From sequence record OR836606.1: a stretch of 64,000 bases of DNA; one strand, given 5' to 3'. The position numbers and the translations under genes are program-made. Source of the stretch: Staphylococcus phage LY01. Shown piece after piece: positions 2,419 to 56,319 of the stretch. How positions within the stretch are numbered: position 1 is the stretch's first letter; each line of letters opens with the position of its first letter. The notes below the pieces were generated by a model. It did no database searches, was not told where the DNA came from, and saw only the letters and a program-made list of their open reading frames with translations.

Positions 2419-5406
2419 TTATGAAATTGAATAAGTTATATTAACTACATCATCATAAGATAAACCTAAATCAATAACAGTTGTTCCATCCTCTGTATCT
2501 TCATTTCTTACTTCAACTTTATTATCTTTAAGAGATTTTTTGATATTAATAAATTCAGGGACGTATTCAATAATTTCTTGTTTACTTAGATCCATATAGT
2601 TTATATTAGTATTAATTAATTTTTGATAATGATTATCAACTTTCTCAGAATATTTTCCTGAAATGCCATTAAATACTATATATTTGATTATATCAAAATT
2701 TTCTTCTAATAGTCTGATTAGGTTAGATATAGGTAGGACTCCTTTTTCGTTACATGCTTCAACGAAATCAGAAATATAACGTTTAATCTCACCGTCTAAG
2801 AAATCATTAATAGGTGCATATAGTGTAATATCTAAATCTAGTAATATATCAGTTCTAGAGATATATTTATTAACTAAACTATCATCATCTAATTCTTTAT
2901 CCAAATAATAATTATTAGATGGTCCTTTAGTATTATAAAGTTTCATATCTATACTAGTATTATTTTGTAATCTAGGAATAGCATCTTCTAATATTTCTTT
3001 ATAACTTTCTAAGATATTATAGACTTCTTCATAATTATTCATAAAGTATCCTAATGAGAATAAAGGTACTAATTCAACTTTACAGCTATCTTCATTCATA
3101 GATACCGTACTACTCATTACTTGTGACATGTCTTTATAAATAGAAACTCCTTCAAAAGTTTCCATAGAACAAGCCAATGTGTAATCTCTAATTTCATCAT
3201 CTCTATGGTTAGGAAATTCATCTTTAAAGAAATTCATTTCATCAGATATATCAAGATCGTTGAAATATCTCATATCTTCATCTTTATAGAGTAAACCTAA
3301 TTTAACTACAAATTTTTCATCTATAAATACATTATCTTGCACTATGCCTTTATCGTTATAAAGTGAATCCGTTATAGATAATTTTCCATTATGGAAAGAT
3401 CTATTAGTAGATATCATCCCTGAATATAAAGAAGATTTATCTACAGTTGAATCTGATTCATCAATAATATTATTTTCAGACTCAATATTTTCTTCTGGAT
3501 TTAATTCAAAGTAACCATATCTTTCACCGGTTTCTTGAGAAATTAGTACAGCTCTAACTTTTAATAAGTCTTTCATTTCTTGAAGTGAACTATCCATGCC
3601 AATTTCTAAACTAAATTTAAATGTATCTGATTCCAAAGTATTTTTGAAATCATTTAATTTTTCTACATATAAATCAGTAGTCGTAATATTGTTAGGTATT
3701 AAATCATTAATATATTTATATTCAGTAGTAAATAGATCATTTACATGAAGCTTATAATAATTAGTAGATAAGAAAGGATATTTATTAATTTTAATTAAAT
3801 AAGGATTTACATAATATAAAGAATCTTTATCTTTTTCAAATTTCTCTTTCTCATCAACATCATCTAAGCCTTTTTCAATATGAATGTATTTTTTACTTTC
3901 TTGATCATATTTAAATAAGCTGTTTTCCGGTATTACATAGCCATCTTCTTCATTACCTAATGAAGTATTTCCTTCAAAATACTGTTTAGGGAATTCTATA
4001 TAAGGAGCAGTATTTGTAGGCATTACTTTACTATCACTGTCCCTCAATAATAGAAAAGCATTATACATACGTGTATAAAGATCATTACGTTTTTTAATGA
4101 AGTTAATAAATGAGTTATTAATATTGTTGTTATCATTAACATCATTAAAATAGTTTTTGATATCAAAATCAGTAATAATATTATCTCTAGTAATGGCTTT
4201 ATTGATTATTCTTCTTTTTTCAGTGTAAACATCTGGTCTATTCTGACCATCAACTGAATTACCTTTAGGAAGAATAGTTATTGGTACTTTTTCGAATGTA
4301 TTATCAGAATCTAAAGCCACATTTAAACTATCATTATAACTAAAGTTACCTCTTTCACCTTTAGTTGTTAAAGTCTCTACAATAACTTTACTATTGGCTT
4401 TAGGTCTAAAAGAATTAGCCATGTTTGAAAACGAAATTTCTAATGAGTTATTATCTTTAAAATTATAATAACAGAAAGGATTGTCGGTATCTGGAGTAAA
4501 AGTATTATTGAAATAAGTTTCCATAGGTTTTCTTACACCTAAGTATTCATAGAACACATTAAACCCGGCTAATTGATTTTCATAACTAACATTGAAATAA
4601 ATATTTTCAGCAATATCGTTACTAGTTATATTGAATTCTTTAGAAACTCTTTCTATTTGGTATAAATCTAAAGAGAAATACATATAATCTATACCATTTA
4701 TTATATTCTTAGTTACTTTAATATTATTATCTAAAATAGAAGAAAATTTAAATAGATCATTATCTATGTCATATCTCGCTGTGATTTTATAATCTATCGC
4801 ATCTTTTCCATCTCTAGTTATCGGATATTGTTTTAATACCATTGATACATCATAAGGTAAACAATATTTAAAACTACCTATCGTAAAATCTTGGTCTTTA
4901 GATAATTTTATCTCATAAGTTTTTAATGATTTCTTTTTATCAATTTCTTGAGTAGATACAATCTCTCTAGAAGGTAATTTTAATAAATCATCTTTTCTAA
5001 TAACAAAATCTACTTTAAAATTAGCAGGCTTAGCCATTTGAATAGGTACATTATACAATTTGGCAAAATTGTATATAGACATAGGAATAGAAGCTGTATT
5101 TAAGAATAATTCATCATATAATACGTTTCTATGATATATAGCATTTTTAATTTCATGTGAATTAATTTCATTAATATAGCCGAATAAACCAGCTTTTAAT
5201 AATGAAATTAGATCTTCATCTTCATTATCATCTATAGGAGTATTTTCAGTATCAATTTCAAAGAATTTAGTAGCCATATTAAACCACTTATCTTTAACAT
5301 CATATGAAGTGCTTCCTATCTTAATAACACTTTCAGTATCTATTTTAGCATTATTAAGGAAATCTATTTTCTCTTGTTCATTAGAGAAATACTGTGTTAT
5401 AGCCAT
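2419..5406 (-). CDS. hypothetical large protein (995 aa), possibly virion structural
   Basis: Long uninterrupted ORF. N/D/Y-rich composition is typical of phage structural proteins. No catalytic motif recognised. Confidence 0.45.
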   Translation of the reverse strand: MAITQYFSNEQEKIDFLNNAKIDTESVIKIGSTSYDVKDKWFNMATKFFEIDTENTPIDDNEDEDLISLLKAGLFGYINEINSHEIKNAIYHRNVLYDELFLNTASIPMSIYNFAKLYNVPIQMAKPANFKVDFVIRKDDLLKLPSREIVSTQEIDKKKSLKTYEIKLSKDQDFTIGSFKYCLPYDVSMVLKQYPITRDGKDAIDYKITARYDIDNDLFKFSSILDNNIKVTKNIINGIDYMYFSLDLYQIERVSKEFNITSNDIAENIYFNVSYENQLAGFNVFYEYLGVRKPMETYFNNTFTPDTDNPFCYYNFKDNNSLEISFSNMANSFRPKANSKVIVETLTTKGERGNFSYNDSLNVALDSDNTFEKVPITILPKGNSVDGQNRPDVYTEKRRIINKAITRDNIITDFDIKNYFNDVNDNNNINNSFINFIKKRNDLYTRMYNAFLLLRDSDSKVMPTNTAPYIEFPKQYFEGNTSLGNEEDGYVIPENSLFKYDQESKKYIHIEKGLDDVDEKEKFEKDKDSLYYVNPYLIKINKYPFLSTNYYKLHVNDLFTTEYKYINDLIPNNITTTDLYVEKLNDFKNTLESDTFKFSLEIGMDSSLQEMKDLLKVRAVLISQETGERYGYFELNPEENIESENNIIDESDSTVDKSSLYSGMISTNRSFHNGKLSITDSLYNDKGIVQDNVFIDEKFVVKLGLLYKDEDMRYFNDLDISDEMNFFKDEFPNHRDDEIRDYTLACSMETFEGVSIYKDMSQVMSSTVSMNEDSCKVELVPLFSLGYFMNNYEEVYNILESYKEILEDAIPRLQNNTSIDMKLYNTKGPSNNYYLDKELDDDSLVNKYISRTDILLDLDITLYAPINDFLDGEIKRYISDFVEACNEKGVLPISNLIRLLEENFDIIKYIVFNGISGKYSEKVDNHYQKLINTNINYMDLSKQEIIEYVPEFINIKKSLKDNKVEVRNEDTEDGTTVIDLGLSYDDVVNITYSIS

Positions 5407-5429
5407 TTACTACTTTCAACTCTCTTTCT

Positions 5430-6398
5430 TTATAAAAATCTTAATCTATATTTAGGTTTAGCTTTATCTTCTTTTCTTTGTCCCGCAACGATATAAGGGT
5501 TACCCGTATTAACTGGATACATTTCATCATAATCTAATTTTATACCCATAGTTGCATTATTAATATTAGCTCTAATAGGTTCAGTTCCAGAAGCATTAGC
5601 TATACTAGTAGACATTGTTGAAACTGAATTAAAGTCAACTAATATATCAGGATTCATATCTTCTTTATATGAATAAGCAAAATTAACTGAAACGTGAGGA
5701 ACTTCTGGGTCATCTCCAATATTTTGTGAGAATATATCATAAGGTACATTTATAGGGAAACATCCAGTATACTTAGAATAATGTAATACAGTTTCACCAT
5801 CAAAGTCTAATAAGAAATAATATATAGAACTAGTATAATCTATATAACGTTTATTTTTAGCATCATCTGAAGGAAATAAATAACCTCTAGTTACGCCTTC
5901 TATATATTCACTCCAAGCTTTAATTAAGTGTATAACATCTATTTCTTTATTTTCTTCAAAATCTACAGCTATTTCTCCACCAGCAACTGAATTAACTGTA
6001 CCTATTGGTAAATGCTGTTTATATCCGTAAAATGTTTCATGAAATTCTTTCATTGTTGTTTGTGTATCGGGAATAGATATCCCCATGAATCTATTTGAAA
6101 GGATTGGGATGAAAGGTCTACCTGAGCTTAAGGCACCGTTATTACTAAAATTTAAGCTTTTTAATAAATCAGGTTTAACTGATCTTAAATAAAGAAAGAA
6201 ACTTTCTCTCCCTATATTTTCTTCTACCAGATTTATTCTAGGTGCTGTTATGAAAATAAAAGGTAATCCTTTATTAAATATTTCTGAATTTTTATCTTTC
6301 ATTCTATATGGATTAAAGGATTTTATTTCTTTTATATCTCCTTCTTCTTTTAATGCTTTTTTAAACTTTTCTTCCGTAGTTTTCTTATCTTCAGCCAA
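5430..6398 (-). CDS. hypothetical protein
   Basis: 322-aa ORF closely following the 995-aa gene on the same strand. Confidence 0.45.
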   Translation of the reverse strand: MAEDKKTTEEKFKKALKEEGDIKEIKSFNPYRMKDKNSEIFNKGLPFIFITAPRINLVEENIGRESFFLYLRSVKPDLLKSLNFSNNGALSSGRPFIPILSNRFMGISIPDTQTTMKEFHETFYGYKQHLPIGTVNSVAGGEIAVDFEENKEIDVIHLIKAWSEYIEGVTRGYLFPSDDAKNKRYIDYTSSIYYFLLDFDGETVLHYSKYTGCFPINVPYDIFSQNIGDDPEVPHVSVNFAYSYKEDMNPDILVDFNSVSTMSTSIANASGTEPIRANINNATMGIKLDYDEMYPVNTGNPYIVAGQRKEDKAKPKYRLRFL

Positions 6399-24917: not shown

Positions 24918-24936
24918 AAAAAAAATAATATAAATT

Positions 24937-24966: not shown

Positions 24967-24971
24967 ATACT

Positions 24972-29810: not shown

Positions 29811-29829
29811 AAAAAAAAATAATAAAAAC

Positions 29830-29859
29830 GCCCTAACCTTAAATTAATAAGGTTAGGGC
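29830..29859. terminator. bidirectional terminator GCCCTAACC-TTAAATTAATA-AGGTTAGGGC (family copy 2)
   Basis: Located between convergent genes. Confidence 0.6.
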
Positions 29860-29865
29860 TATTAT

Positions 29866-32598: not shown

Positions 32599-34782
32599 TT
32601 AATAAATCATAATAGTTCTACCGCAATCATAAATTCTATTAGGATTATTAGGATCTTTCTTTTCAAGTCTTTTGCTTCGATATTTAACTTTTCCTTTAGT
32701 TCGGAAATTTCTATAATCTGGCGATTCTTCTTCAATACTAACGAATCCATATTCTTTAAATTTATATTTGTTATAAGAATCAGATCTTAAATTAAAAATA
32801 ATATTTGGATATTGATTTAAAATTAAATCAATATCTGCATTGGTCCTATAATTAGTGCAATAATTATTAGATATACCTTTATTATTATAAGAAAATACAG
32901 ATATTAAAGTGTTTTTATAAAAAATTCCTTTATAAAATTTATCTTCTTTATTAAAGAAATCTAAAGAGTGATTTTTATAAAATTCTTTTATTTGTGTATA
33001 ACTTATTTTTCTTATTTCTAAATTATTTTCTATTTCTTTATCAATATTAAGATTTTTATCACCAAACAATAGAATTTCTTTTAAGATTTTACTATATTGA
33101 TTTTTTATATGCTCATACTTGTTAAAGAATTGATCTTCATATAGATTTATTAATTTATAACCTTTATTTTCCATTATATCCATTTTTTCTTTTTGATGCG
33201 TTTTTGCGTAATGTTCATCTTTAATCATATTTGAATGCCATCTTAATCCATTTACTTCAATACCCAAACCAATATCTTCTATAAAAATATCTATTTCTTT
33301 TCTATTACCTAGTATTAATCTATTAGAAATTTTAATATTTTGATACAGAGTATATTTTTTGATAATATTAAATAGAGTATCTTCTAAACTTGAAGGACCC
33401 GCAAATTTACATTTAGGACAACCTCCTCCTTTTATAATATTCTCTACTCTAGATTCAAAATAACCATGTTTTTTACATCCAAATATTGATACAGCTTTAT
33501 CATAATCATATTGAAAATTGAATTTATCTAAAATTAGTTGATCTTTTCTTTTATAACGTATCTTATATTTATAAAATTCATTTTTCTGTTTTTGATTGAA
33601 TTGTATTTTTGCTATCATTCCTTTTTCTCTATTATTTAAGTTCTTATCTTTAAATAACTCAAAAGGTGTATACTTTTTAAAATTGGTTTTAATGCTTATT
33701 AAAGGAATGTCTTTTTTATTTAGAGGTTTTCCTGTAAAATTTCCTGCTTTTTCTCTTTTAATAGCCGCAGTTTTTTCTAAAGCACATTTTCTACAACCAT
33801 AACCATTTGAATGAGATCTTAAAGATGTTCGAACTCTACCATGTTTTTTACATTTTATAATTACATGATCTTTATTAAAATTATTAAATCTTAATTCACT
33901 ATAATCATATTTATTGTTATGGATATAACTTAATTTCATTTTCATAAATTCATTTTTTTCATCAATATTAAATTTTATATAATTCTTACGAAAATCTTTA
34001 TCGCCTTTTTTCCATTTTTTAAACAAAGATTCTGGAGTTTCTTTTTTACTAATAGATGCATTTCTTTTTATTTTTTCTTTAACACAATCAGGACAGCTTT
34101 CATTATTTCTTTTAGAATAGTGGTTTACTGCTATTATTTCAAATTTTCTGTTGTGTTTTTTACATCTTAATTTTAACCTACAATGCCTTCCTGTATATAC
34201 TGCTTCAGAATAATCATATTTCTTTTCATATTCTGGGTGTCTTTTAAAAACATTTTTTAAAAATTGTTCTTTCGTTAAAATTTTATTTTTACTATCTCTT
34301 TCTTTTTGACATTTAGGACAATCTACAAATCTTAATAAATGATTACTTATACTTCTTTTGAAGGTGCCATGTTTTTCACATTTTATTTCTATATAGGTCG
34401 ATTTATTATAACGTTTATCTAAGTCTAAATTAGGATAAGTAAATTTATCACCATATATCTCTTTAAATTTAGATAAAAATTCTCTTCCAGTTAGATAATG
34501 TTTTTCTTCATAACATTTAACACATCTTTTAGCACATTTAGCATTGCCCCATAAATCAAAATATTTCTCATGTCCTTTTTCACATGTATATTTTATTCTT
34601 AAATCTTTTTTCTTCATCCCTTTACTATAATTCAATATCTCTATACTACCACCATAAGCATTAAGTAATTTACTCATACTTTTTTCTATATCTTTTTTAG
34701 TAAATGTAACCATTATCCTTTTCATCTCCGTTAAATTTATTTTTATAATTATGAATGTATATTTTAAATTAATACATAACAA
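32599..34782 (-). CDS. zinc-ribbon-repeat protein with C-terminal Vsr/DUF559-like nuclease domain (homing-endonuclease-like), paralog of the 29866..31815 gene
   Basis: At least five C-x-KHG ... CPxC modules. EIDIFIEDIGLGIEVNGLRWHS Vsr-like core. Shared C-terminal ..YDCG..I..(F/Y). Confidence 0.5.
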   Translation of the reverse strand: MLCINLKYTFIIIKINLTEMKRIMVTFTKKDIEKSMSKLLNAYGGSIEILNYSKGMKKKDLRIKYTCEKGHEKYFDLWGNAKCAKRCVKCYEEKHYLTGREFLSKFKEIYGDKFTYPNLDLDKRYNKSTYIEIKCEKHGTFKRSISNHLLRFVDCPKCQKERDSKNKILTKEQFLKNVFKRHPEYEKKYDYSEAVYTGRHCRLKLRCKKHNRKFEIIAVNHYSKRNNESCPDCVKEKIKRNASISKKETPESLFKKWKKGDKDFRKNYIKFNIDEKNEFMKMKLSYIHNNKYDYSELRFNNFNKDHVIIKCKKHGRVRTSLRSHSNGYGCRKCALEKTAAIKREKAGNFTGKPLNKKDIPLISIKTNFKKYTPFELFKDKNLNNREKGMIAKIQFNQKQKNEFYKYKIRYKRKDQLILDKFNFQYDYDKAVSIFGCKKHGYFESRVENIIKGGGCPKCKFAGPSSLEDTLFNIIKKYTLYQNIKISNRLILGNRKEIDIFIEDIGLGIEVNGLRWHSNMIKDEHYAKTHQKEKMDIMENKGYKLINLYEDQFFNKYEHIKNQYSKILKEILLFGDKNLNIDKEIENNLEIRKISYTQIKEFYKNHSLDFFNKEDKFYKGIFYKNTLISVFSYNNKGISNNYCTNYRTNADIDLILNQYPNIIFNLRSDSYNKYKFKEYGFVSIEEESPDYRNFRTKGKVKYRSKRLEKKDPNNPNRIYDCGRTIMIY

Positions 34783-35286: not shown

Positions 35287-35420
35287 CTAATTTAATTTTT
35301 CTGTATTAGTACAATACAGATAAGACTATATCTTCTAATGTAATATATTTAGTCGTTGAACAACTTGTATTAAGTTGATGCTGATTAATCTAATAAGATA
35401 CTTCCAGCAATTAATATTAT
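35287..35420 (-). ncRNA. compact group I intron, copy G (short-5' subfamily), in the beta-prime-like gene; boundaries approximate
   Basis: On the minus strand: P AATTGCTGGAAG (35401-35412), Q TTAATCAGCATCA (35377-35389), R TGTTCAACGACTAAATA (35347-35363), S GATATAGTCT (35323-35332), P9 hairpin CTGTATTGTACTAATACAG (35301-35319). Confidence 0.65.
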
Positions 35421-35456
35421 TTAATGTGAGCATCAAGTTTACCCACCTTCTTGAGT
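35421..35456 (-). CDS. putative micro-exon of the beta-prime-like gene between introns F and G (frame and limits uncertain)
   Basis: In one frame it encodes (Y)SRRWVNLMLTLNNI. This matches the universally conserved beta-prime G(Y)LTRRLVDV segment and the paralog's GYLNRKITLLTSDL. No start codon in that frame. Confidence 0.4.
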
Positions 35457-35633
35457 CATTTATGTTAACTATATTAAAATAATACAGATCAGACTATATC
35501 AAAAACTCTATATGAGCTTAATTATATTTAGTCGTTGAACACTATTTTTAGTGATGCTGATTAACTTAATAAAGGATCTCAGCAATTAATAATTTTTCGT
35601 ATATTATATTACTATAATAAAGGGCATTCATAT
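35457..35633 (-). ncRNA. compact group I intron, copy F (long-5' subfamily with P1 hairpin GGTAT..ATGCC), in the beta-prime-like gene
   Basis: P TTAATTGCTGAGATCC, Q TTAATCAGCATCA, R TGTTCAACGACTAAATA, S GATATAGTCTGATC, P9 CTGTATTATTTTAATATAG, terminal ..TTAACATAAATG (omega-G at 35457). Confidence 0.7.
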
Positions 35634-36431: not shown

Positions 36432-36970
36432 TTTATTTTCACTTCTTTCATTATTTTATTCATATTTAGATGTTATTGAGCATTTTATAATTTTTATATA
36501 ATTAAACAATGTATATGAAGTTAATAGTTATTTTTATATTAAATATTTAATTGTATTAATTTAATAAAGATAATATAAATAGTCAATGATTTATATTAAA
36601 TTAATATAAATTACAGAAATAAATTATGTAAAAACTATAAATTTTTATAATTATGTGATAAAAAATTTGAAAATGCCCGGAATATTATAATTATATTATA
36701 ATAAAATTATAATAATAAATATATTATTCTTATAATATATTTATATAAATTAAAATATTATGAGGGGATAGTACACATTTTTATTTCATAAAAATGTATT
36801 AAGAAAATAACGAACGAAGTGAGTTATTTTATTTATATAAATCCAATTAAAATACATAACAATAATAATCAAAACTATTGTATATAGGAAATTTATTGAA
36901 TAATATTATAAAATAAAAATAATATAAATATATTAATCAATAAAATTAAATACGGAAAGGAATGGCATAA
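36432..36970. promoter_or_regulatory. ~540-bp extremely AT-rich divergent intergenic region between the two intron-containing RNAP genes (probable divergent promoters)
   Basis: No ORF. Long runs of ATAATATAAATA-type repeats. Flanked by the starts of the minus-strand beta-prime-like and plus-strand beta-like genes. Confidence 0.3.
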
Positions 36971-38560
36971 TTGAAATATCTTAATAGATTAAAAAATCTT
37001 AAATTCTATTCAATATCTGGATATAAAATTAAAGCTATTGATGAAGAAATCGAAGATAAGAAAAAAGATCAGTTAGTTATTTATAAAGGTTTTAAAGAAA
37101 ATTCATTTACTGATTTTTTAAATAGTGGATTATTATATCATCAGAATTTTAAGAATATCTATATTCCGAGATTGTATAGAACTAGAAATAGAAGAACTAG
37201 ATTATTAACAAATATAACAGATTATCAAAAAGAGATTAAATCTAAATCTTACAAACAGTATAGAGTTGAAAGAAATGAGAAATTATTTAAAGGTAGAAAC
37301 TATATTGTTGATTCAACTAAATTTATTGATTTAGAAGATAAATCATTAATAACTAGAAATTTTAATACAGTATTGGATTCAATTAAATCAACTTTTAATT
37401 CTTTAAATAATGCAGAAGATTACAATAATTTATTATATGTAATTAATGTTGATGGGTATAATAAGTCTTCTCAAGAAGCAATTAGACCTAATACAAAAGA
37501 TTTCATGTCAAGCTTATTCATGATGATTAAGAATCAAGAGGAATTACCTCATGGTGAAAATCAAAATATTAATTTATTATTTGTCTCATTAGATAATGGA
37601 ATAATGTTTAAATTTGATTATAAAGATTATAATAAACTTAATATGAGACTTAGACAAAGATTAAGAAGAATCATTGATACTAATACACAAGCATTAGATA
37701 CTGATGAAATTAGTAAAGTTGAAGATGATGACAATACTGAAGCTGTAGATGGAGTAATTAAAAAGAAAGCATTTGATAATGTAGGAACAATTGATCCTAT
37801 CGAAGCTCAGAACGATGAAGCTGAATATGAAAATGATGAACAGTTAGAAAAAATATCTAATAAAATAGATTCTACAATAAGTTATATTAGATCATTAGAC
37901 AATACTGAAATGGATGTTGATGATGAATATAATATAGCTATGATAATTGAAAAAGAATTAAATAATAATAAAGATTTAATTGATATTGATACTGAAACAT
38001 TATATTCGGATGTATTGGATAAAAATGATTCATTTAAATCAATTAAGAGAAATATTAAAAATAAATCTAGTATTGGCGATGAAGCACTTAAAAATACTAA
38101 AAAGATATTAGCTTTATCCAAGAAACAAGATGAATACCTTAATGATTTAGAGGATTTTAGCTTTTCTGAAGATAAATTAATCGATAGAGAAATTAATGAA
38201 AATATTAATAATATTAATGAAGAGACTATTAATAATATTGCTTCTAATGATTTTGATGTTTCTTATATGCAAAAAACATTTAATAAAGACTTTATTGATA
38301 TAATGAAAAGCTTTAATGACAATGAAGATATTCCGGTATTTATTAATAAAATGAATATTGAAGATAATTCAGATAGTCAATCATTAAAAAATACAGTTAA
38401 AGTTCAATTTAGAAGTCCAGACGGTTTAACTCATAATGTTAAATTTGATGTTCCTAAAGTTATTGACGGTAAGTACATGAAGCTTAACGGTGGGAAAAAG
38501 ATATTAACTAAACAGTTAATGATGTGGCCAATCGTTAAATATAAACCGGATTGTTCATAA
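36971..38560 (+). CDS. RNAP beta-like subunit, exon 1 (N-terminal part; TTG start per ORF track; true exon end probably at a U within 38551-38557)
   Basis: C-terminal KYMKLNGGKKILTKQLMMWPIVKYKPD aligns to RpoB [25 protein letters not shown]. Confidence 0.6.
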   Translation: MKYLNRLKNLKFYSISGYKIKAIDEEIEDKKKDQLVIYKGFKENSFTDFLNSGLLYHQNFKNIYIPRLYRTRNRRTRLLTNITDYQKEIKSKSYKQYRVERNEKLFKGRNYIVDSTKFIDLEDKSLITRNFNTVLDSIKSTFNSLNNAEDYNNLLYVINVDGYNKSSQEAIRPNTKDFMSSLFMMIKNQEELPHGENQNINLLFVSLDNGIMFKFDYKDYNKLNMRLRQRLRRIIDTNTQALDTDEISKVEDDDNTEAVDGVIKKKAFDNVGTIDPIEAQNDEAEYENDEQLEKISNKIDSTISYIRSLDNTEMDVDDEYNIAMIIEKELNNNKDLIDIDTETLYSDVLDKNDSFKSIKRNIKNKSSIGDEALKNTKKILALSKKQDEYLNDLEDFSFSEDKLIDREINENINNINEETINNIASNDFDVSYMQKTFNKDFIDIMKSFNDNEDIPVFINKMNIEDNSDSQSLKNTVKVQFRSPDGLTHNVKFDVPKVIDGKYMKLNGGKKILTKQLMMWPIVKYKPDCS

Positions 38561-38589
38561 CAGTCCACTTTTATAGCAATATGAAAGTA

Positions 38590-38730
38590 AAAAGAATATT
38601 AATTGCTGAAACGGTTTTATTAAATTAATCAGCATCAATTATTATTAATTGTTCAACGACTAAATATATTCACTCTTATTGAGAGTATGATATAGTCTGT
38701 GCTCTAAATTGATAATTTAGAGATTGTATA
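38590..38730 (+). ncRNA. group I intron core, copy E (5' ribozyme moiety of an IStron-like element) in the beta-like gene
   Basis: P TTAATTGCTGAAACGG (38599-), Q TTAATCAGCATCA (38625-37), R TGTTCAACGACTAAATA (38651-67), S GATATAGTCT (38689-98), P9-like TGTATAAAATACAG (38715-28). Confidence 0.7.
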
Positions 38731-38803
38731 AAATACAGATAAAAAATTCATATCAGAATTTCTCTTAACATATTTTTATAATATGATTAGGAGGTGAAAT
38801 TAA

Positions 38804-40006
38804 ATGATAAACAAAAACGGAAAATTAGTTAAATCTTTCAAAACTAGAATATACCCAAATCAAGATCAAATAAATTATTTCAATAAATGTTTTGGTGTAA
38901 GAAGAAAAATATGGAATATGGCTTTAGAAGACTATCAAAATAAAGATGATGACGCTCAATTTAGCGGATTTGATTATCAGAAAAAATTAAATAATGAAAT
39001 TTATGAATCTGGTAAATATCCCTATCTTTATGAAGTTAATAGCATGGTTAGACAAGAAGCTTTAAAAGACTTAGATGAATCTTTTAAAATATATAGAAAT
39101 GAACAAAAGAAAGCTAGAAAGTCTAAAGATGCAATTGACACTGAAAAATTTAAACCCAAGTTTAAAAAGAAAAAACATTCTAATGAGTCATTTAGATTTA
39201 TGGTTAAAGATAAGAAATATTTACCTATTAGATTTTTATCTAAGAAATGGATAAAAATTTCCGTAATGAAAGGAATTAAACCTTTTATAATCAAATCTAA
39301 AGAATCAATGAAGTTTATTAATTCTAATAACCATAGATTTCTCACTTACACTATAAGCAGAAAGAATGAAAAATATTATATTTCTGTAACTTATGAGATA
39401 AACAATTATAAGAAACAGAGATTGAATAATGATTCAATTGGTATTGATATGGGTATGAAAACACCATTAGTATGTGTAGATTCAAATGGTCAAACATTTG
39501 AATTTAAAATCCCACATAACTTATGGAAACAAGAAAGAAAAACTGAGAAATTGCAAGCAAAACTATCAAGTAAGAAATATTATTCAAAATCATATTACAA
39601 AACTTTAAAACAATTAAGAAAATCTTATAATAGAGAGTGTAATATATTAGAAGATTATAGAGATAAAATCACTAATTGGTTAGTTAAAAACTATAAAGTG
39701 ATTAATATTGAACCATATAGTCATAAAGCTTCTAATAATTTAAGAAATGCTCGTAGATCTAATAGAAGATTTGGCAAATATGATTTCCTAGAAAAATTAA
39801 AGTATAAGATTTTACAATATGATAATGAATTGAATATAATTACTAAAAAGAAAACTACACAAACATGCTCATCATGCGGTTATGTAAGAACTAACGATGA
39901 GAAACTTGTCATTGGCGATGATATTCATGATTGTCCTAAATGTAATGTAGTTCTTGATAGAGATTTAAATGCGGCTAAAAATATTCTAGATTTAAAATAT
40001 GTTTAA
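38804..40006 (+). CDS. tnpB: TnpB (OMEGA RNA-guided RuvC-like nuclease / IS605 OrfB)
   Basis: N-terminal KTRIYPNQDQINYFNKCFGVRRKIWNMALE. RuvC-I IGIDMGMKT, RuvC-II ..VINIEPY.., zinc finger CSSCGYV..CPKCN, RuvC-III VLDRDLNAAKNIL. 400 aa. Confidence 0.85.
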   Translation: MINKNGKLVKSFKTRIYPNQDQINYFNKCFGVRRKIWNMALEDYQNKDDDAQFSGFDYQKKLNNEIYESGKYPYLYEVNSMVRQEALKDLDESFKIYRNEQKKARKSKDAIDTEKFKPKFKKKKHSNESFRFMVKDKKYLPIRFLSKKWIKISVMKGIKPFIIKSKESMKFINSNNHRFLTYTISRKNEKYYISVTYEINNYKKQRLNNDSIGIDMGMKTPLVCVDSNGQTFEFKIPHNLWKQERKTEKLQAKLSSKKYYSKSYYKTLKQLRKSYNRECNILEDYRDKITNWLVKNYKVINIEPYSHKASNNLRNARRSNRRFGKYDFLEKLKYKILQYDNELNIITKKKTTQTCSSCGYVRTNDEKLVIGDDIHDCPKCNVVLDRDLNAAKNILDLKYV

Positions 40007-40180
40007 TTAATTTCACAAAATAAAAGATATGAGAGTCGCCTGCGGTCAGCGGGAGACGATAAACGGGTGATAAGCTAATGTCTGATTAGCTTTACAAGGA
40101 GTACAGAGGTACCTCTATACGTTAGTCACTGAGCCAAGTGTATTTTATACAAGATCTTGCCTTTAGATTTAATTATTTAA
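40007..40180 (+). ncRNA. putative omega-RNA (reRNA) scaffold at the right end of the TnpB element
   Basis: GC content jumps (GAGAGTCGCCTGCGGTCAGCGGGAGACGATAAACGGGTGATAAGC..) immediately after the tnpB stop. Multiple stems present. The position is typical of IS605-family omega-RNAs. Confidence 0.45.
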
Positions 40181-41571
40181 AATCAAGATTTAACAAGACA
40201 GACAGTATGGATTACAACTAACTATAATAAATTCATTATAGAAAAATTTGGTTATAAAGAAAATGCTGAAACTGAATGGATCAAGAAAGTTATTGAAGAT
40301 GACCAAGTTATAGATTATATTGAAAATAAATCTAACTTATCTGTTAAAAAAGGTAATGCTTCTTTAATCAATAATAAATATGTAACTTCAGTTATTTATA
40401 ATAGCTTATCTAGAAATATATTAAATTTCCAAGATGACACTAATGTACTTGAATTTAATCAAAGAAGTTTATTAGCGATGATTTCTGATAGTGCTAGTTT
40501 ATCTAAAATTGATTATGATCAAGATAAATATTTCCCTATTGGTTATAATATTAATAAATCTAAATTAATATTAGCAGATAAGACAGAATCTGTTATGTAT
40601 GAATGTAGTAAGACTAATATTAAGTCAATGGAAATGAATATATTTGATTACCTTATTGATAAATTAGACAATGAAGTTGACTTTGGTGTTATTGATAAGA
40701 AATTCAGTAAGAATATTCAGGCTAATAAGACTATGGCATTTTCACGTGTTAAAATTACTAATAAATTAGTACCTACAATTTTATTATTAGGTTTCTATAA
40801 AGGTTTAACTAGTATTCTTGATCTTTATGAAGTTGATTATAAATTTACTACTGAGAATGAAAGAATTAGTATTCATGATAAAAAGAATAAAATTAAATTC
40901 CAAGATGGTTATTTAATATACTCTACTGATAAATTAAGATATGATTTATTAATGTCTGGATTAACTGTATTGCCTACATCACAATACAATTTCAGTGATT
41001 TTGAAACTGAAACACCTTACTTAGAATATTTCAATGATAAATTCTACAGTCGTAATGTTGGTAAAGGTATCAAAAATACTATGGATTTAGCAATGGATCC
41101 TATTACTAAAGAAGTATTAAGGGATTTAAAACTTCCTGATAATATGGTTGAATTATTACTATTAGCTAATACGATGTTAGAAGATGTATCAGCTAGAGAT
41201 CATAATGATATGGGAATTTATCGTGTACGTGGCCCAGAACAAATTAATGCATTATTATATAAAATGATGGCAAATGCTTATAAAGAATATTCAGATTCTT
41301 ATAATAATAAAAATCCTAAGAATATTTCAGTTAAACAAGATCAATTAATTAAAACTATTATGGAACAACCTACAGTGGATGAAGTATCTGATTTAAACCC
41401 TAACTTAGAAATAGATAAGATGACTTCTGTTACATTTAAAGGACCTGCTGGACGTAACTCTGAACAATCATATGAACCTGATATTCGTTCTTACGATGAA
41501 AGTATGCAAGGTATATTAGGAATAAGTACACCTGACAGTAATAAGGTAAATTACTTGCCCTTAATTACAGT
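40181..41571 (+). CDS. RNAP beta-like subunit, exon 2 (true 5' splice acceptor somewhere after 40181; ORF track shows only 40478..41578)
   Basis: FSRVKITNKLVPTILLLGFYKGLTSILDLY aligns to RpoB FVRIDRRRKLPATIILRAL..EQILDLF. FKGPAGRN..EPDIRSYDESMQGILGISTPDSNKVNYLPLITV aligns to [41 protein letters not shown]. Confidence 0.6.
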
Positions 41572-41727
41572 AATGTAATTCAATGAAAATTTATTAATTG
41601 CTAAAAATCTTTATTAAGATGATCAGCATCACTAAAAATAGTGTTCAACGACTAAATATAAATTCACTTATTATAAGTGTAAGATATAGTCTAATCTGTA
41701 TTAGATTATTATAGAATAATACAAATG
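41572..41727 (+). ncRNA. compact group I intron, copy A (short-5' subfamily); boundaries +/- a few nt
   Basis: P TTAATTGCTAAAAATC, Q AGATGATCAGCATCA, R TGTTCAACGACTAAATA, P8 CACTTATTATAAGTG, S GATATAGTCTAATC, P9 CTGTATTAGATTATTATAGAATAATACA, terminal AAATG. Confidence 0.7.
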
Positions 41728-41878
41728 AGGTATTGTCAGACAACTTTCATATGATACACAAATTAAATCTACTCGTGGTTATACTGATGGTAGTAAAAAA
41801 GATGTAAGTGATACAGCTTTATACACACCATTAGAATTATTAAATCCATATACTAGTAGACATGCGGATATACGAAAT
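41728..41878 (+). CDS. RNAP beta-like subunit, exon 3 (~50 codons)
   Basis: ..YTPLELLNPYTSRHADIRN aligns to RpoB ..SLIPFLEHDDANRA. The proposed junction gives LPLITV|GIVRQLSYDTQIK. Confidence 0.5.
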
Positions 41879-42034
41879 GAGGTAAGTTCGCAATAAAATT
41901 ATTTAATTGCTGGAAAGCTTTATTAAGTTAATCAGCATCAGTTAAAGACTGTTCAACGACTAAATAATAATTACCATTTATATGGTGAAGATATAGTCTA
42001 ATCTATATTAATTTAATATAGAATAATAAAAATG
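41879..42034 (+). ncRNA. compact group I intron, copy B (short-5' subfamily)
   Basis: P TTAATTGCTGGAAAGC, Q TTAATCAGCATCA, R TGTTCAACGACTAAATA, P8 ACCATTTATATGGT, S GATATAGTCTAATC, P9 CTATATTAATTTAATATAG, terminal AAAAATG. Same 156-nt length as copy A under independent boundary guesses. Confidence 0.7.
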
Positions 42035-42058
42035 TCACCTCGTATAGGAATGACTGGT
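42035..42058 (+). CDS. RNAP beta-like subunit, 8-codon micro-exon 4 (SPRIGMTG)
   Basis: RIGMTG aligns to RpoB RALMGA immediately before the QRQAVP motif. Confidence 0.45.
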
Positions 42059-42242
42059 ATTAAAATGAATGCCCTTTATTATAGTAATATAATATACGAA
42101 AAATATTTAATTGCTAAGAATCTTTAATTAAAGAAATTAGCATCAAATTAATACAATTTGTTCAACGACTAAATAATATTATACTTATTTAAGTATTTGA
42201 TATAGTCTGATCTGTATTAAATTAATACAGTTAACATAAATG
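42059..42242 (+). ncRNA. compact group I intron, copy C (long-5' subfamily with P1 hairpin GGTATT-AAAATG-AATGCC)
   Basis: P TTAATTGCTAAGAATC, Q AATTAGCATCA (compensatory TGCTAA/TTAGCA versus TGCTGG/ATCAGCA in other copies), R TGTTCAACGACTAAATA, P8 ATACTTATTTAAGTAT, S GATATAGTCTGATC, P9 CTGTATTAAATTAATACAG, omega-G at 42242. Confidence 0.75.
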
Positions 42243-42644
42243 ACTCAAGCTAAGCATTTAATTGCTACTAAAACAAATGACCGTCCATTAGTTGGTTCCG
42301 GTGTAGATAAATCTTTAGCCTACCAAATTTCAGACACATTTGCTTTTAAAGCTAAAGAAGATGGAAAAGTAACTTCTATTAATGAGAAAACAGGATTAAT
42401 GATTGTTGAATATATTAATGGAGATAAAGATGTAATTGATATATCTGAAAAACTTGCTAAAAACTCTAATGGCGGATTTTATCAAAATAATAAACTTACA
42501 CCGCAATTTGAAGTAGGTAAGAAATTTAATAAAGGACAAATATTAGCTAAAAATGATAATTACTTTGCAGGTTCTGGTAGTAATAATGATATTCAATTCA
42601 CTGCTGGTAAATTATCTAAAGTTGCAGTAGCTAGCTCATATGGT
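42243..42644 (+). CDS. RNAP beta-like subunit, exon 5 (134 codons, ends on GGU)
   Basis: TQAKHLIATKTNDRPLVGSGVDKSLAYQISDTFAFKAKEDGKV aligns to RpoB [39 protein letters not shown]. ..KLSKVAVASSYG aligns to ..MRVAFMPWNGYN. Confidence 0.65.
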
Positions 42645-42832
42645 ATTATAAATGCCTTTCATTATAGTAATATAATGTATAAAAAATATTTAATTGCTGG
42701 AAAGTCTTTATTAAGACAATCAGCATCATTAATTTATAATGTTCAACGACTAAATAATATTATACTTAATTAATATGTATTTGATATAGTCTAATCTGTA
42801 TTGATTAACTCTTAATGCAGTTAATATAAATG
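42645..42832 (+). ncRNA. compact group I intron, copy D (long-5' subfamily, P1 hairpin GGTATT-ATAA-ATGCC)
   Basis: P TTAATTGCTGGAAAGT, Q ACAATCAGCATCA, R TGTTCAACGACTAAATA, S GATATAGTCTAATC, P9 CTGTATTGATTAACTCTTAATGCAG, terminal TTAATATAAATG (omega-G 42832). Confidence 0.75.
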
Positions 42833-43591
42833 ACTTATGAGGACAGTTCTATTATTTCTAATAGTATGTCTGAAGCTATGTCAACTAAAGTTACTATGAA
42901 GAAAACAGTAAATTTAGCTTCCAATACGAATATTCAATATATTGTAAAAGAAGGTCAAAATGTACGTACAGGAGACCCATTAATGATATTTGAGAATTCA
43001 TTTGATGATGAAGGTATCGGTTCTTTATTAGATAAAATTGGATCTGAATTTGAACAAGAAATCCAAGATATTTCTAATAGAGCTGTTAGATCTAAATATA
43101 CAGGCGTAATTAAGAAAGTAAATATCTATTATAATGATGATATTGAAAATATGTCTCCTACATTAGCTAAATTGGTTAATAGTTATATTAATAAATCTAA
43201 GAATAAATATAAAGAATATAAAAATGCAGTTAAAGGTAACAAATCTACATTACCTGGATTAGATGTAGATATTCCTGCAGTTGAAAAAATCAATAATGAA
43301 AAAATTAAAGGTGAAAAAGTTGATGGTGTTCTTATTGAAATCTTTACAGAATATGAAGATGATATGAGTATCGGTGATAAGATTAGTTTCTATGGGGCGT
43401 GTAAAACGGTCATTGCTGACGTTACTCCACCTGACGAATCCCCTTATGCAGAATATAGACCTGATGAAGAAATTGAAGCTATATTCTCTCCATTAAGTAT
43501 CGTGTCTCGTATGACTACAGATATATATCTCATGTTGTTTACCAATAAAGCACTCATAGAGCTTAAGAGAAAAGTTAAAGATATGCTTTAA
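42833..43591 (+). CDS. RNAP beta-like subunit, exon 6 (in frame with exon 5 when joined GGU|ACU)
   Basis: TYEDSSIISNS aligns to RpoB NFEDSILVSER. The join gives ..SSYG|TYEDSSII. Confidence 0.65.
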   Translation, partial: TYEDSSIISNSMSEAMSTKVTMKKTVNLASNTNIQYIVKEGQNVRTGDPLMIFENSFDDEGIGSLLDKIGSEFEQEIQDISNRAVRSKYTGVIKKVNIYYNDDIENMSPTLAKLVNSYINKSKNKYKEYKNAVKGNKSTLPGLDVDIPAVEKINNEKIKGEKVDGVLIEIFTEYEDDMSIGDKISFYGACKTVIADVTPPDESPYAEYRPDEEIEAIFSPLSIVSRMTTDIYLMLFTNKALIELKRKVKDML

Positions 43592-56266: not shown

Positions 56267-56282
56267 AAAAAAGATATAAATT

Positions 56283-56312: not shown

Positions 56313-56319
56313 ATATATT

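What the first reader, a model, noticed from the sequence alone, without database searches (positions are those of the whole stretch)
38561..40180. IStron-like unit: group I intron copy E carries an intact TnpB gene plus omega-RNA-like 3' end inside the RNAP beta-like gene
Intron copy E lies at 38590-38730 with a full P/Q/R/S core and a P9-like hairpin. Directly after it comes a complete 400-aa TnpB ORF at 38804-40006 with its own GGAGG RBS, intact RuvC-I/II/III residues and a CxxC..CxxC finger. A ~170-nt GC-rich structured tail follows at 40007-40180 where IS605-family omega-RNAs are encoded. The beta-like reading frame reopens at exactly 40181. This corresponds to the chimeric group I intron + IS605-type element known as an IStron (established for Clostridium/Bacillus). 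Here it sits in a phage RNA polymerase gene, and the same phage carries six ORF-less miniature copies of the intron moiety. The data are consistent with a transposon-borne intron that has proliferated, possibly via reverse splicing or by IS-mediated mobilisation, and then lost its TnpB cargo in most copies. Splicing of this copy must remove ~1.6 kb, and the omega-RNA overlaps the region where the 3' splice site must lie. That sets up the intron-versus-guide-RNA conflict recently described for IStrons.
Basis: partly seen in the sequence, partly recalled or inferred. Interest (0 to 1): 0.85.

Follow-up and report, generated by a model that had tools for sequence, protein, structure and literature searches.

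The report
TnpB-carrying self-splicing intron in phage gene

Summary
The insert is window 38552-40201 (1650 nt), not 38561-40180. Removing it restores the reading frame that is uninterrupted in related phages (...KYKPD|TVWITT...).

It has three parts:
- a complete miniature group I ribozyme (P1-P9, 38552-38722);
- an intact TnpB gene (38804-40006), with RuvC D215/E303/D387 and a CxxC..CxxC finger, and dN/dS 0.10-0.28 between copies;
- a 195-nt tail with three stem-loops and a covarying pseudoknot 3 nt from the 3' splice site, the published omega-RNA architecture.

A covarying 12-14 bp long-range helix (38724-38737 with 40139-40152) closes the ORF into an intron loop.

The whole unit recurs at three other genes in phage Machias, with identical ends and a P1 guide sequence that changes with the flanking exon. 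It is a group-A-type IStron (xGAT| target, ...CAG| end) without TnpA.

The TnpB clade is at most 33-38% identical to anything in the viral and genome collections scanned. Every member examined with upstream sequence is intron-associated, and none carries tnpA.

The idea that the six miniature introns are TnpB-less derivatives is not supported. Splicing, nuclease activity and homing are inferred, not shown. Verdict: new member of a known kind, moderately interesting.

The parts
36971..38551 (+). Exon 1 of the virion RNA polymerase beta gene. Its last bases, CCGGAT (38546-38551), are the 5' strand of P1 and the presumed TnpB TAM.
   Evidence: Aligns to aa 1-527 of the uninterrupted SA1 beta ORF and to Madawaska L001 1501-3148.
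38552..40201 (+). The whole IStron (1650 nt), from the first intron base after U38551 to the 3'-terminal G40201.
   Evidence: Absent from Madawaska, MarsHill, SA1, Machias, AH12 and PB50 beta genes. Conceptual splicing gives an open frame...KYKPDTVWITT.... Homology to the three Machias copies starts and stops at exactly these bases.
38548..38566 (+). P1 hairpin GGAUUGUU-CAU-AACAGUCC, with the U38551-G38563 wobble at the 5' splice site. The internal guide sequence is 38559-38566.
   Evidence: It covaries with the exon across copies: AGAU/GUCU in Machias copy 1 and UAUU/AAUA in copy 3. Rfam assigns the same P1.
38567..38722 (+). Ribozyme core. P2 38567-38588 (GCAA loop); P3 38594-38599 with 38666-38671; P4 38604-38608 with 38630-38634; P5 38613-38626; P6 38636-38651; P7 38658-38662 with 38693-38697; P8 38672-38686; P9 38702-38722.
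   Evidence: P3, P5, P6 and P8 keep pairing with different sequences in 11 copies; P7 is invariant. Rfam Intron_gpI full-length match.
38724..38737 (+). 5' strand of the long-range helix (UUGUAUAAAAUACA) that pairs with 40139-40152 and encloses the TnpB ORF.
   Evidence: It is the longest complement between the two regions in 8 copies, always at the same position. Across 6 lineages, 12 pairs are 100% paired, 10 of them with changes on both sides, and 0/500 shuffles reach the observed score.
38767..38778 (+). AACATATTTTTA, which matches the AR9-type late-promoter consensus AACA(N6)TW. Candidate internal promoter for TnpB and the omega-RNA.
   Evidence: Present 31-40 nt upstream of the TnpB start in 12 of 13 copies, against 9% of random 70-nt windows. 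The consensus is quoted in Korn et al. 2020. Function is inferred only.
38789..38796 (+). Ribosome-binding site AGGAGGTG for TnpB.
   Evidence: Read from the sequence. Invariant in the four Staphylococcus-phage copies.
38804..40006 (+). TnpB gene (400 aa plus stop).
   Evidence: Three Pfam TnpB domains. Full-length match to ISDra2 TnpB structures. D215, E303, D387 and C355/C358/C377/C380 are invariant in 23 clade members. dN/dS is 0.10-0.28 between copies.
40035..40201 (+). Omega-RNA-like scaffold (167 nt). SL1 (nexus) 40035-40057; SL2 40072-40092; SL3 40101-40120; 3' strand of the long-range helix 40139-40152; terminal hairpin about 40152-40191; pseudoknot GUC 40045-40047 with GAC 40197-40199; 3'-terminal G 40201.
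   Evidence: SL1 plus the pseudoknot are 100% paired in 10 distinct sequences, all 3 pseudoknot pairs covary, and 0/500 shuffles reach the observed score. SL3 and the terminal hairpin show compensatory changes among the 4 copies. The tail is far more conserved than synonymous sites (dS 0.57-0.76). Three stem-loops plus a nexus pseudoknot is the architecture described in bioRxiv 10.1101/2023.11.20.567912.
40202..40217 (+). First 16 nt of exon 2 (ACAGTATGGATTACAA), the presumed guide portion of the omega-RNA.
   Evidence: Inferred from the IS605/IStron rule that the guide is the sequence flanking the right end. This flank differs at each of the four insertion sites.
40202..41547 (+). Exon 2 of the beta gene.
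   Evidence: Aligns to SA1 aa 528-976 and to Madawaska L001 3153-4499.

Best explanation
This is a group-A-type (IS200/IS605-lineage) IStron that has lost its transposase. It sits in sense orientation in the virion RNA polymerase beta gene of a Staphylococcus jumbo phage; the TnpB protein is 100% identical to one from phage LY01.

RNA level. In read-through pre-mRNA the 171-nt ribozyme core folds. P1 pairs exon GGAU with GUCC in the intron. A 14-bp long-range helix loops out the TnpB ORF together with SL1-SL3 and brings the distal end close to the core. Splicing after G40201 removes 1650 nt and restores the beta reading frame.

DNA level. TnpB binds the 3' scaffold (three stem-loops plus the nexus pseudoknot). 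That scaffold is continuous with about 16 nt of exon 2, which serves as guide. The complex would cut intron-less alleles, which carry xGAT followed by the exon-2 sequence, in co-infecting or replicating phage genomes. Recombinational repair would then copy the IStron in. This is homing, not transposition.

The conflict. Splicing cuts the guide off the scaffold. The pseudoknot and the long-range helix strand are also shared between the two folds, so the two fates of a transcript exclude each other. A conserved AACA(N6)TA motif upstream of TnpB may give a second, ribozyme-less transcript that makes only TnpB and omega-RNA.

Shown here: the anatomy, the boundaries, mobility as a unit, RNA covariation and purifying selection on TnpB. 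Inferred: splicing in vivo, nuclease activity, the TAM, homing and the internal promoter.
For: Boundaries and frame restoration:
-. SA1 has one uninterrupted 1418-aa ORF.
- Machias copy 3 lies inside a CDS recorded as 2846..5963 with a 491-residue product. That length matches my boundaries exactly: 897 + 579 nt.

Mobile as a unit:
- Four copies in four different genes, all co-oriented with the interrupted gene. Homology is limited to |UGUU...CAG|.

Ribozyme:
- Rfam Intron_gpI matches.
- Helix covariation.
- P1 internal guide sequence covaries with the exon, with a U-G wobble at the splice site.

Long-range helix:
-.

TnpB:
-.

Omega-RNA:
-, with the published architecture.

Group A affinity:
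- 5' flanks are CGGAT, TAGAT, CGGAT, CGGAT and the 3' ends are ACAG/CCAG.
- The nearest outgroup TnpBs (31-38% identical) are also intron-associated, with flanks GTTGAT, TATGAT, TGGAT, AAGAT and TTAGAT.
- The published group A rule is a TTGAT-type target with the 5' exon ending in T and a TCAG 3' end.

No TnpA:
- None inside any of the 13 copies with upstream sequence: the stretch between the ribozyme core and TnpB leaves no room for it.
- None in the window.
- No Staphylococcus jumbo phage among the listed hits for Y1 or serine TnpA.

Literature:
- Homing by TnpA-less IStrons is proposed in PMC13565253.

Insertion site:
- Within +-42 nt of the junction, the only differences from the closest intron-less relatives lie at -4, -1, +3 and +6. 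This fits either selection or co-conversion at the insertion site.
Against: - There is no expression, splicing or cleavage data.
- The Rfam score of this copy's ribozyme (23.7 bits) is below the gathering score, and no Rfam family matches the tail.
- The ribozyme lacks P7.1/P7.2, so it is not a textbook IA2 intron, unlike every IStron described so far.
- The TAM is inferred from four flanks only.
- Every sequenced intron-less allele has at least one mismatch to the presumed guide (position 6), and two alleles lack the GAT motif. No currently cleavable target is in hand.
- The left and right ends share no sequence similarity, so recognition by a Y1 transposase supplied in trans is doubtful. How new sites are reached is therefore unexplained.
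- The phage DNA is presumed to contain uracil in place of thymine. Whether TnpB tolerates that is unknown.
- The strands of the long-range helix were found by searching for complementarity, which inflates the pairing percentage. The conserved position and the slid controls argue that the helix is real.
Confidence: 0.8

Rival explanations
1. Still a transposon. The element moves mainly by peel-and-paste transposition, using a TnpA supplied in trans by the host, by a co-infecting phage, or by the unseen part of the genome. TnpB then has only its classical role of restoring excised copies.
For: - Copies sit in four unrelated genes next to a short xGAT motif, as expected for IS200/IS605 target choice.
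- IS607-type TnpA genes exist in other Staphylococcus phages of 135-141 kb.
- Only 64 kb of about 259 kb of this genome was visible.
Against: - No member of the clade with upstream sequence carries tnpA.
- No TnpA-like ORF is in the window.
- No Staphylococcus jumbo phage is among the listed TnpA hits.
- The left and right ends share no similar subterminal hairpins.
- The copies are old (dS about 0.6-0.76), so transposition is rare at best.
- G-U intermediates in the terminal hairpin point to constraint at the RNA level, not the DNA level.
Confidence: 0.2
2. Domesticated or decaying cargo. TnpB no longer cuts DNA. It persists as a splicing regulator or RNA chaperone for its own intron, or simply as a not-yet-degraded passenger, and the element spreads only as an intron.
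For: - TnpB binding represses IStron splicing in the Clostridium botulinum system.
- An IStron with high splicing activity and undetectable DNA cleavage is reported in PMC13521648.
- No perfectly matching target allele is known.
Against: - The RuvC triad and the zinc-finger cysteines are invariant in all 23 clade members.
- dN/dS is 0.10-0.28 over substantial divergence.
- The omega-RNA pseudoknot and nexus stem covary. That is needed for guide-RNA function and not obviously for splicing.
Confidence: 0.12
3. Nested accident. An independent TnpB-only insertion sequence landed inside an ordinary miniature intron. The two parts are not one unit, and the true 3' splice site is the old one near 38740.
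For: The segment after P9 (UAUAAAAUACAG) resembles the 3' end of the miniature introns (CAUAAAUG|), which suggests the TnpB module was once added at or near an intron 3' end.
Against: - The base that corresponds to the minis' terminal G is A in all four copies.
- Splicing near 38740 would leave 1.45 kb with stop codons in the mRNA.
- The ribozyme module and the tail travel together to four loci with exact common ends.
- The long-range helix linking the two parts covaries in six lineages.
Confidence: 0.03

Closest known systems
Group A IStrons (CdISt1 of Clostridioides difficile and relatives: group I intron fused to an IS200/IS605 element)
   Same: - The layout matches: ribozyme at the 5' end, ORF B (TnpB) downstream, and intron ends that coincide with the mobile-element ends.
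- The 5' exon ends in ...GAT with a U-G pair at the splice site.
- The 3' end is ...CAG.
- Multiple copies sit in unrelated protein-coding genes in sense orientation.
- ORF-B-only versions are already known.
   Different: - The TnpB is only about 28% identical to the best-matching TnpB of Clostridium phage c-st, a phage that carries IStrons.
- The target is NGGAT/TAGAT rather than a T-rich pentanucleotide.
- The ribozyme is about 171 nt and lacks P7.1/P7.2, whereas described IStron introns are all IA2.
- No examined member of the clade with upstream sequence carries tnpA.
- The host is a lytic jumbo phage presumed to have uracil-containing DNA, not a bacterial chromosome or prophage.
CboIStron (IS607-type, group B) as dissected in 'Antagonistic conflict between transposon-encoded introns and guide RNAs'
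   Same: - The omega-RNA scaffold lies in the 3' UTR of tnpB, with three stem-loops and a nexus pseudoknot.
- The pseudoknot's 3' strand abuts the 3' splice site.
- The guide lies in the 3' exon, so splicing and guide maturation exclude each other.
   Different: - Group B elements insert after GG, end in CGG, have a G rather than a U at the 5' exon end, and use a serine TnpA.
- Here the flank ends in U, the end is CAG, and there is no TnpA.
- A conserved candidate internal phage promoter upstream of TnpB is not mentioned in the passages of those papers I read.
Homing-endonuclease-bearing group I introns of phages (T4 td/I-TevI; Twort and SPO1 introns)
   Same: A self-splicing intron in an essential phage gene carries a nuclease ORF in a peripheral loop closed by a long-range helix. 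The expected spread is by cleavage of intron-less alleles during co-infection, with co-conversion of flanking exon bases.
   Different: The nuclease is RNA-guided (TnpB), and its specificity is written in the flanking exon rather than in the protein. A copy at any new site would therefore be re-targeted automatically.
ISDra2 TnpB-omega-RNA (IS200/IS605, Deinococcus radiodurans)
   Same: Full-length sequence homology including the RuvC D-E-D triad. Its TAM, TTGAT, shares the GAT ending. The guide RNA is encoded at the right end.
   Different: ISDra2 has TnpA and no intron. No Rfam or other covariance model linked the two RNAs here.

Membership tests
IStron | A group I ribozyme core (P1-P9) at the 5' end, with a U-G pair at the 5' splice site and a terminal G at the 3' end | tested here: met
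   Rfam Intron_gpI gives a full-model match at 38543-38722 (E=3e-4, below gathering), and a paralogue scores 59.5 bits, above gathering. P3/P5/P6/P8 covary.
IStron | An IS200/IS605-family ORF B (TnpB) inside the intron, on the same strand | tested here: met
   Pfam PF12323, PF01385 and PF07282 all score above their cut-offs. Match to PDB TnpB structures at E=2e-19.
IStron | Intron ends coincide with the ends of the mobile DNA unit, and removal restores the host gene precisely | tested here: met
   At a second locus, the 491-residue recorded product fits the same boundary rule.
IStron | Copies in several unrelated genes (mobility) | tested here: met
   LY01 beta gene plus three Machias loci. 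A second LY01 TnpB paralogue lies outside the window.
IStron | A transposase ORF A (Y1 HUH TnpA or serine TnpA), or a remnant of one | tested here: not met
   There is no room for it between the ribozyme and TnpB in any of the 13 copies with upstream sequence. The window has no TnpA-like ORF. Known IStrons include ORF-B-only forms, so this does not exclude membership.
IStron | Self-splicing demonstrated | not testable with these tools
   Needs RT-PCR or in vitro transcription.
Group A IStron (IS200/IS605 type) | Insertion 3' of a TTGAT/ATTAT/TTTAT-type pentanucleotide, with the 5' exon ending in T and the 3' terminus TCAG | tested here: inconclusive
   The flanks are CGGAT (three copies) and TAGAT (one), and the ends are ACAG/CCAG. 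These share GAT| and CAG| but are not T-rich. The nearest outgroup IStrons include a canonical GTTGAT flank. The rule is taken from PMC13565253.
Group B IStron (IS607 type) | Insertion after GG with a G at the 5' exon end; 3' end CGG; AT-rich terminal inverted repeats | tested here: not met
   The 5' exon ends in U in all four copies and the 3' end is CAG.
TnpB-omega-RNA (OMEGA) nuclease | An intact RuvC D-E-D triad and a CxxC..CxxC zinc finger | tested here: met
   D215, E303, D387 and C355/C358/C377/C380 are invariant in 23 sequences and align to the ISDra2 catalytic residues.
TnpB-omega-RNA (OMEGA) nuclease | A scaffold RNA at the right end with consecutive stem-loops and a nexus pseudoknot to the scaffold 3' end, directly followed by the flank-derived guide | tested here: met
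   Three stem-loops plus a pseudoknot (GUC/GAC, GGU/ACC, AAU/AUU) are 100% paired, with 0/500 shuffles reaching the observed score. The scaffold is 118-189 nt in 14 copies. No Rfam model is available for it.
TnpB-omega-RNA (OMEGA) nuclease | TAM- and guide-dependent DNA cleavage | not testable with these tools
   Needs a biochemical or plasmid-interference assay.
Group I intron subgroup IA2 (Twort-like) | P7.1/P7.2 helices between P7 and P3' | tested here: not met
   Only 3 nt (AAU) separate P7 (38658-38662) from P3' (38666-38671). Larger relatives (L125-L127, L131) do carry an extra hairpin there.
IS200/IS605 transposon | Similar subterminal hairpins at the left and right ends for TnpA binding | tested here: not met
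   Local alignment of the first and last 110 nt scores no better than shuffles: 329 of 500 shuffles score at least as high. Hairpins exist at both ends but are unrelated in sequence.

The most novel reading that the evidence does not exclude
This is a phage-specialised, transposase-free IStron lineage in which TnpB works as an RNA-programmed intron-homing endonuclease in contests between co-infecting jumbo phages presumed to have uracil-containing DNA. The element would carry its own phage late promoter (AACA(N6)TA), so that TnpB and guide RNA come from a ribozyme-less transcript while the read-through transcript splices, which sidesteps the intron/guide conflict. New sites would be reached by reverse splicing at xGAU sites, possibly with help from the phage's orphan reverse transcriptase, and the guide would be re-set automatically by the new flank.
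Probability: 0.25. Interest if true: 0.75.

Novelty: new member of a known kind. Interest (0 to 1): 0.55.

Why it matters
IStrons have so far been dissected in clostridial chromosomes, where TnpB is thought to protect a transposon from loss after TnpA-mediated excision. Here the same three-in-one architecture sits in an essential gene of a lytic jumbo phage, and no transposase is found in any examined member of the clade that has upstream sequence.

That makes this a natural test case for two proposals. The first is that TnpA-less IStrons spread by RNA-guided intron homing. The second is that a single RNA has to balance splicing against guide-RNA production.

It also offers practical material:
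- a very small ribozyme (about 171 nt);
- a compact TnpB with a GAT-type TAM that may work on uracil-containing DNA;
- a possible second promoter that would separate the two RNA fates.

For annotation, genes labelled 'transposase' inside split genes of Staphylococcus jumbo phages should be read as intron cargo.

Tried and rejected
- The Rfam gathering scan of the whole window found nothing, and the 9.5-kb E-value scan found no Intron_gpI match. Only narrow scans recovered Intron_gpI. No Rfam family fits the tail.
- A covariance model of the ribozyme was planned and dropped. MAFFT seed alignments misplace P5 and P8 and cannot be edited. Helix-by-helix parsing replaced it.
- Looking up the second LY01 copy (P0002) failed: it is not on record, and it lies outside the window.
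- Scanning IMG/VR for the SL1 motif gave 0 hits. IMG/VR and GTDB held no close TnpB relative. The metagenome scan added only three short contigs.
- I tried to obtain TnpA queries from the regions around TnpB in Clostridium phage c-st and Campylobacter phage CP220. Neither region had one. TnpA sequences were taken instead from ORFs next to distant TnpB loci.
- Classification as IS607/group B was considered because most flanks contain GG. It was rejected because the flanks end in U and the element ends in CAG.
- 'Two separate genes' and 'tail is exon sequence' are rejected by the uninterrupted SA1 ORF.
- P10 pairing with the 3' exon was examined by eye and is not consistent between copies, so no claim is made.
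- The sigma-70 promoter scan gave no more hits than shuffles.
Full report
WHAT THE WINDOW IS. The region is 94-95% identical to Staphylococcus jumbo phages Madawaska, S6, MarsHill and PALS_2. The ORF product at 38804-40006 is 100% identical to a protein of Staphylococcus phage LY01, from a contig of 258,897 nt. [quoted passage not shown] That paper never uses the words 'transposase' or 'IStron'.

CHECKING THE OBSERVATION. The ORF at 38804-40006 matches the three Pfam TnpB domains above their cut-offs. It aligns over its full length with solved ISDra2 TnpB structures. D215, E303 and D387 fall on the catalytic D191, E278 and D361. In 23 clade members those three residues and C355/C358/C377/C380 are invariant.

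BLAST against the Madawaska beta gene shows that window 36900-38547 and 40202-41548 are contiguous there. The junction reads:
- Madawaska: AAACCTGAC|ACTGTTTGG
- LY01: AAACCGGAT|tgttcat...aagacag|ACAGTATGG.

Phage SA1 encodes the whole beta subunit as one 1418-aa ORF. That ORF maps onto the window as exons 36971-38551, 40202-41547, 41728-41869, 42243-42644 and 42833-43591, plus an inferred 24-nt micro-exon at 42035-42058 that tblastn did not align. Splicing out 38552-40201 gives an open frame...LMMWPIVKYKPDTVWITTNYNKF....

So the insert is 1650 nt. It follows a U and ends in G, as group I introns do.

THE RIBOZYME. The whole-window Rfam gathering scan found nothing, and the 9.5-kb E-value scan found no Intron_gpI match. 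Scanning short stretches recovers Intron_gpI:
- 38543-38722, full model, 23.7 bits, E=3e-4;
- the paralogous copy 41840-42021, 59.5 bits, above the 50-bit gathering score;
- 41538-41712, 37.3 bits.

nhmmer with a profile of the repeats finds seven copies in the window: this one, four more in the beta gene, and two on the minus strand in the beta' gene.

Parsing 11 copies helix by helix shows that P3, P5, P6 and P8 keep pairing with many different sequences, while P7 (GACUA/UAGUC) is invariant. P2 ends in a GNRA loop. P1 puts a U-G wobble at every 5' splice site. There is no room for P7.1/P7.2, so the core (about 171 nt) is a reduced relative of the IA-type phage introns.

MOBILE AS ONE UNIT. 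A distant BLAST of 38540-40200 finds a 99%-coverage, 85.7%-identical copy in phage Machias at a different locus. Two further Machias copies were fetched through their TnpB proteins.

In all four copies, homology begins at the first intron base and stops at ...CAG|. All four are co-oriented with the interrupted gene.

P1 covaries with the exon:
- LY01: GGAUUGUU/AACAGUCC
- Machias 1: AGAUUGUU/AACAGUCU
- Machias 2: GGAUUG/CAGUCC
- Machias 3: GGAUUAUU/AAUAGUCC.

For Machias copy 3, the record lists a CDS spanning 2846..5963 with a 491-residue product. That length equals exactly the two exons defined by my boundary rule, 897 + 579 nt.

TnpB copies differ at dS 0.57-0.76 but have dN/dS of 0.10-0.28. 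The non-coding tail is nearly invariant apart from compensatory changes. Both the protein and the RNA are therefore under purifying selection.

THE TAIL IS AN OMEGA-RNA-TYPE SCAFFOLD. From 40035 to 40201 there are:
- SL1, GUCGCCUGC-GGUCA-GCGGGAGAC;
- SL2, AAGCUAAU-GUCUG-AUUAGCUU;
- SL3, GUACAGAGG-UA-CCUCUAUAC, which reads GUGAGAAGG-AU-CCUUCUCAC and GUAUAAGGG-UU-CCCUUAUAC in the Machias copies;
- a terminal hairpin with A-U, G-C and G-U variants at one pair.

The SL1 loop pairs with the three bases at -5 to -3 of the 3' end: GUC/GAC in LY01, GGU/ACC in Machias 3, AAU/AUU in metagenomic relative L130. A formal count on 10 distinct sequences gives 100% pairing. Six of 11 pairs change on both sides, including all three pseudoknot pairs. 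None of 500 shuffles reaches the observed covariation score, and slid controls pair at 46% or less.

Three consecutive stem-loops, with a nexus stem whose loop forms a pseudoknot to the scaffold 3' end next to the 3' splice site, is the omega-RNA architecture reported for IS605 and IS607 IStrons (bioRxiv 10.1101/2023.11.20.567912). The 16 nt after the end differ at every locus, as expected for a flank-derived guide.

A HELIX THAT TIES THE TWO HALVES TOGETHER. The longest complement between the segment after P9 and the tail is 38724-38737 (UUGUAUAAAAUACA) with 40139-40152 (UGUAUUUUAUACAA). The same positions pair in every relative, with different sequences. Across six lineages, 12 pairs are 100% paired, 10 change on both sides, and 0/500 shuffles reach the observed score.

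The strands were located by complementarity, which favours pairing. The fixed position and the slid controls support a real helix all the same. In the intron fold this helix loops out the TnpB ORF together with SL1-SL3. Its 3' strand is part of the guide-RNA scaffold, so the two folds compete. This is a second physical basis for the splicing-versus-guide conflict.

WHERE IT BELONGS. In the phage collection only Machias has a close TnpB. The next best is about 30%, and the best-matching TnpB of Clostridium phage c-st, a phage that carries IStrons, is 28%. IMG/VR tops out at 33% and GTDB representative genomes at 38%. Relatives at 41-49% exist only in metagenome assemblies, and the longer contigs have phage-like neighbouring genes.

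Every examined relative with enough upstream sequence has a group I core upstream, the same tail plan, and no tnpA.

The nearest outgroups (31-38%; Clostridium and Waltera MAGs and viral contigs) are also intron-associated. Their 5' flanks are GTTGAT, TATGAT, TGGAT, AAGAT and TTAGAT. Three of the five end in ACAG or CCAG.

The published rule for group A IStrons is a TTGAT-type target, a 5' exon ending in T, and a TCAG 3' end. Group B elements insert after GG, with a G at the exon end and a CGG terminus (PMC13565253; PMC4227781). This element is therefore a group-A-lineage IStron with a GAT-ending but not T-rich target.

No TnpA-like ORF is in the window. Y1 and serine TnpA queries list no Staphylococcus jumbo phage. 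The two ends share no similar hairpins.

THE MINIATURE INTRONS. The R...S motif of this intron family occurs in more than 120 IMG/VR contigs, mostly 200-400 kb, and none of those loci carries a TnpB homologue.

The IStron ribozyme modules are 76-89% identical to each other across two phages, but only 61-71% identical to the minis. The minis are 67-83% identical among themselves. The minis end in ...AAAUG|. In all four IStron copies the homologous base is A. The tail, the right-end motif and the long-range strands each occur once in the window.

The data therefore do not support recent loss of TnpB from the minis. They fit TnpB capture at the 3' end of one member of a resident intron family, or old sister lineages.

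THE INSERTION SITE. Within +-42 nt of the junction, LY01 differs from Madawaska only at -4, -1, +3 and +6, and from MarsHill only at -4, +3 and +6. All of these are synonymous third positions.

All six intron-less alleles carry T at +6 where LY01 has A. Two of them have GAC in place of GAT. This clustering fits co-conversion during homing, adaptation of the exon to P1, or resistance of the intron-less alleles. It also means that no perfectly matching target is currently known.

A POSSIBLE INTERNAL PROMOTER. AACA(N6)TA lies 31-40 nt upstream of the TnpB start in 12 of 13 copies, against 9% of random 70-nt windows. It matches the AR9 late-promoter consensus AACA(N6)TW quoted by Korn et al.. If it is functional, it would give a transcript without the ribozyme that can only yield TnpB and omega-RNA. 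This is inference.

LITERATURE. IStrons, their two groups, ORF-B-only forms and copies in Clostridium botulinum phages c-st and D-1873 are known. The intron/guide conflict has been dissected. Homing by TnpA-less IStrons has been proposed. Full-text searches for 'IStron' with 'jumbo phage', for TnpB with 'group I intron', 'phage' and 'Staphylococcus', and for LY01 found no description of this element.

VERDICT. The finding is correct in substance. It is a new member of a known kind, on a distinct, phage-associated, transposase-less branch, and it has unusually clean comparative evidence for both RNA folds. Splicing, cleavage, the TAM, homing and the promoter remain to be shown.

Noticed in passing
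window 36971-43591 (+): The virion RNA polymerase beta gene is split into six exons by five group I introns: 38552-40201, 41548-41727, 41870-42034, 42059-42242 and 42645-42832. A 24-nt micro-exon (42035-42058) lies between two adjacent introns. Phage SA1 has none of these introns, and Madawaska has only the 41870-type one.
   Followed up: partly
window 35296-35633 (-): Two miniature introns sit almost back to back in the beta' gene on the minus strand (35633-35457 and about 35425-35296), separated by a micro-exon of roughly 16-24 nt. The second copy lacks P2.
   Followed up: no
window 41864-41869: The 5' exon of the ORF-less intron at 41870 ends in GCGGAT|, the same motif as the IStron insertion sites. 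Its P1 is GCGGAU/GUUCGC.
   Followed up: no
L005-L124 (IMG/VR loci): The motif TTCAACGACTAAATA...GATATAGTCT of this intron family occurs in more than 120 viral contigs, mostly 200-400 kb, some with several copies per locus. None of the fetched stretches has a TnpB homologue.
   Followed up: partly
window 38767-38778; the same position in L002-L004, L125, L126, L130, L257, L258, L337-L339: AACA(N6)TA is conserved 31-40 nt upstream of the TnpB start in 12 of 13 IStron copies. It matches the AR9-type late-promoter consensus.
   Followed up: partly
window 38546-38551 and 40202-40207, compared with L001, L344, L341, L342, L340 and L343: Synonymous differences from the closest intron-less relatives cluster within 6 nt of the insertion site (-4, -1, +3, +6). 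A at +6 is unique to the IStron-bearing allele.
   Followed up: partly
phage records OP940114.1, MW864252.1, LC492752.1 and others: IS607-type serine TnpA homologues occur in Staphylococcus phages of 135-141 kb. These could in principle co-infect the same host, and whether they could act in trans is unknown.
   Followed up: no
window 32599-34782 (-), and 30155-30468 against 32882-33198: A 727-aa ORF rich in repeated CxxC motifs lies next to the beta' gene. It has a paralogous stretch about 2.7 kb away (repeat families D13, D16, D19), possibly duplicated free-standing endonuclease-like genes.
   Followed up: no
window 49576-49754, 54025-54159, 55364-56204: Coding tandem repeats with periods of 54 nt, 15 nt (KETES-like) and 240 nt.
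   Followed up: no
window 24916-24969, 29809-29862, 56262-56315; and 28998, 31852, 36713, 58490: Two recurring motifs: a terminator-like palindrome, CCCCTAACCTTAAATTAATAAGGTTAGGGG, and an AT-rich promoter-like motif, TTATAATATATATTTAAA. These are probably phage transcription signals.
   Followed up: no
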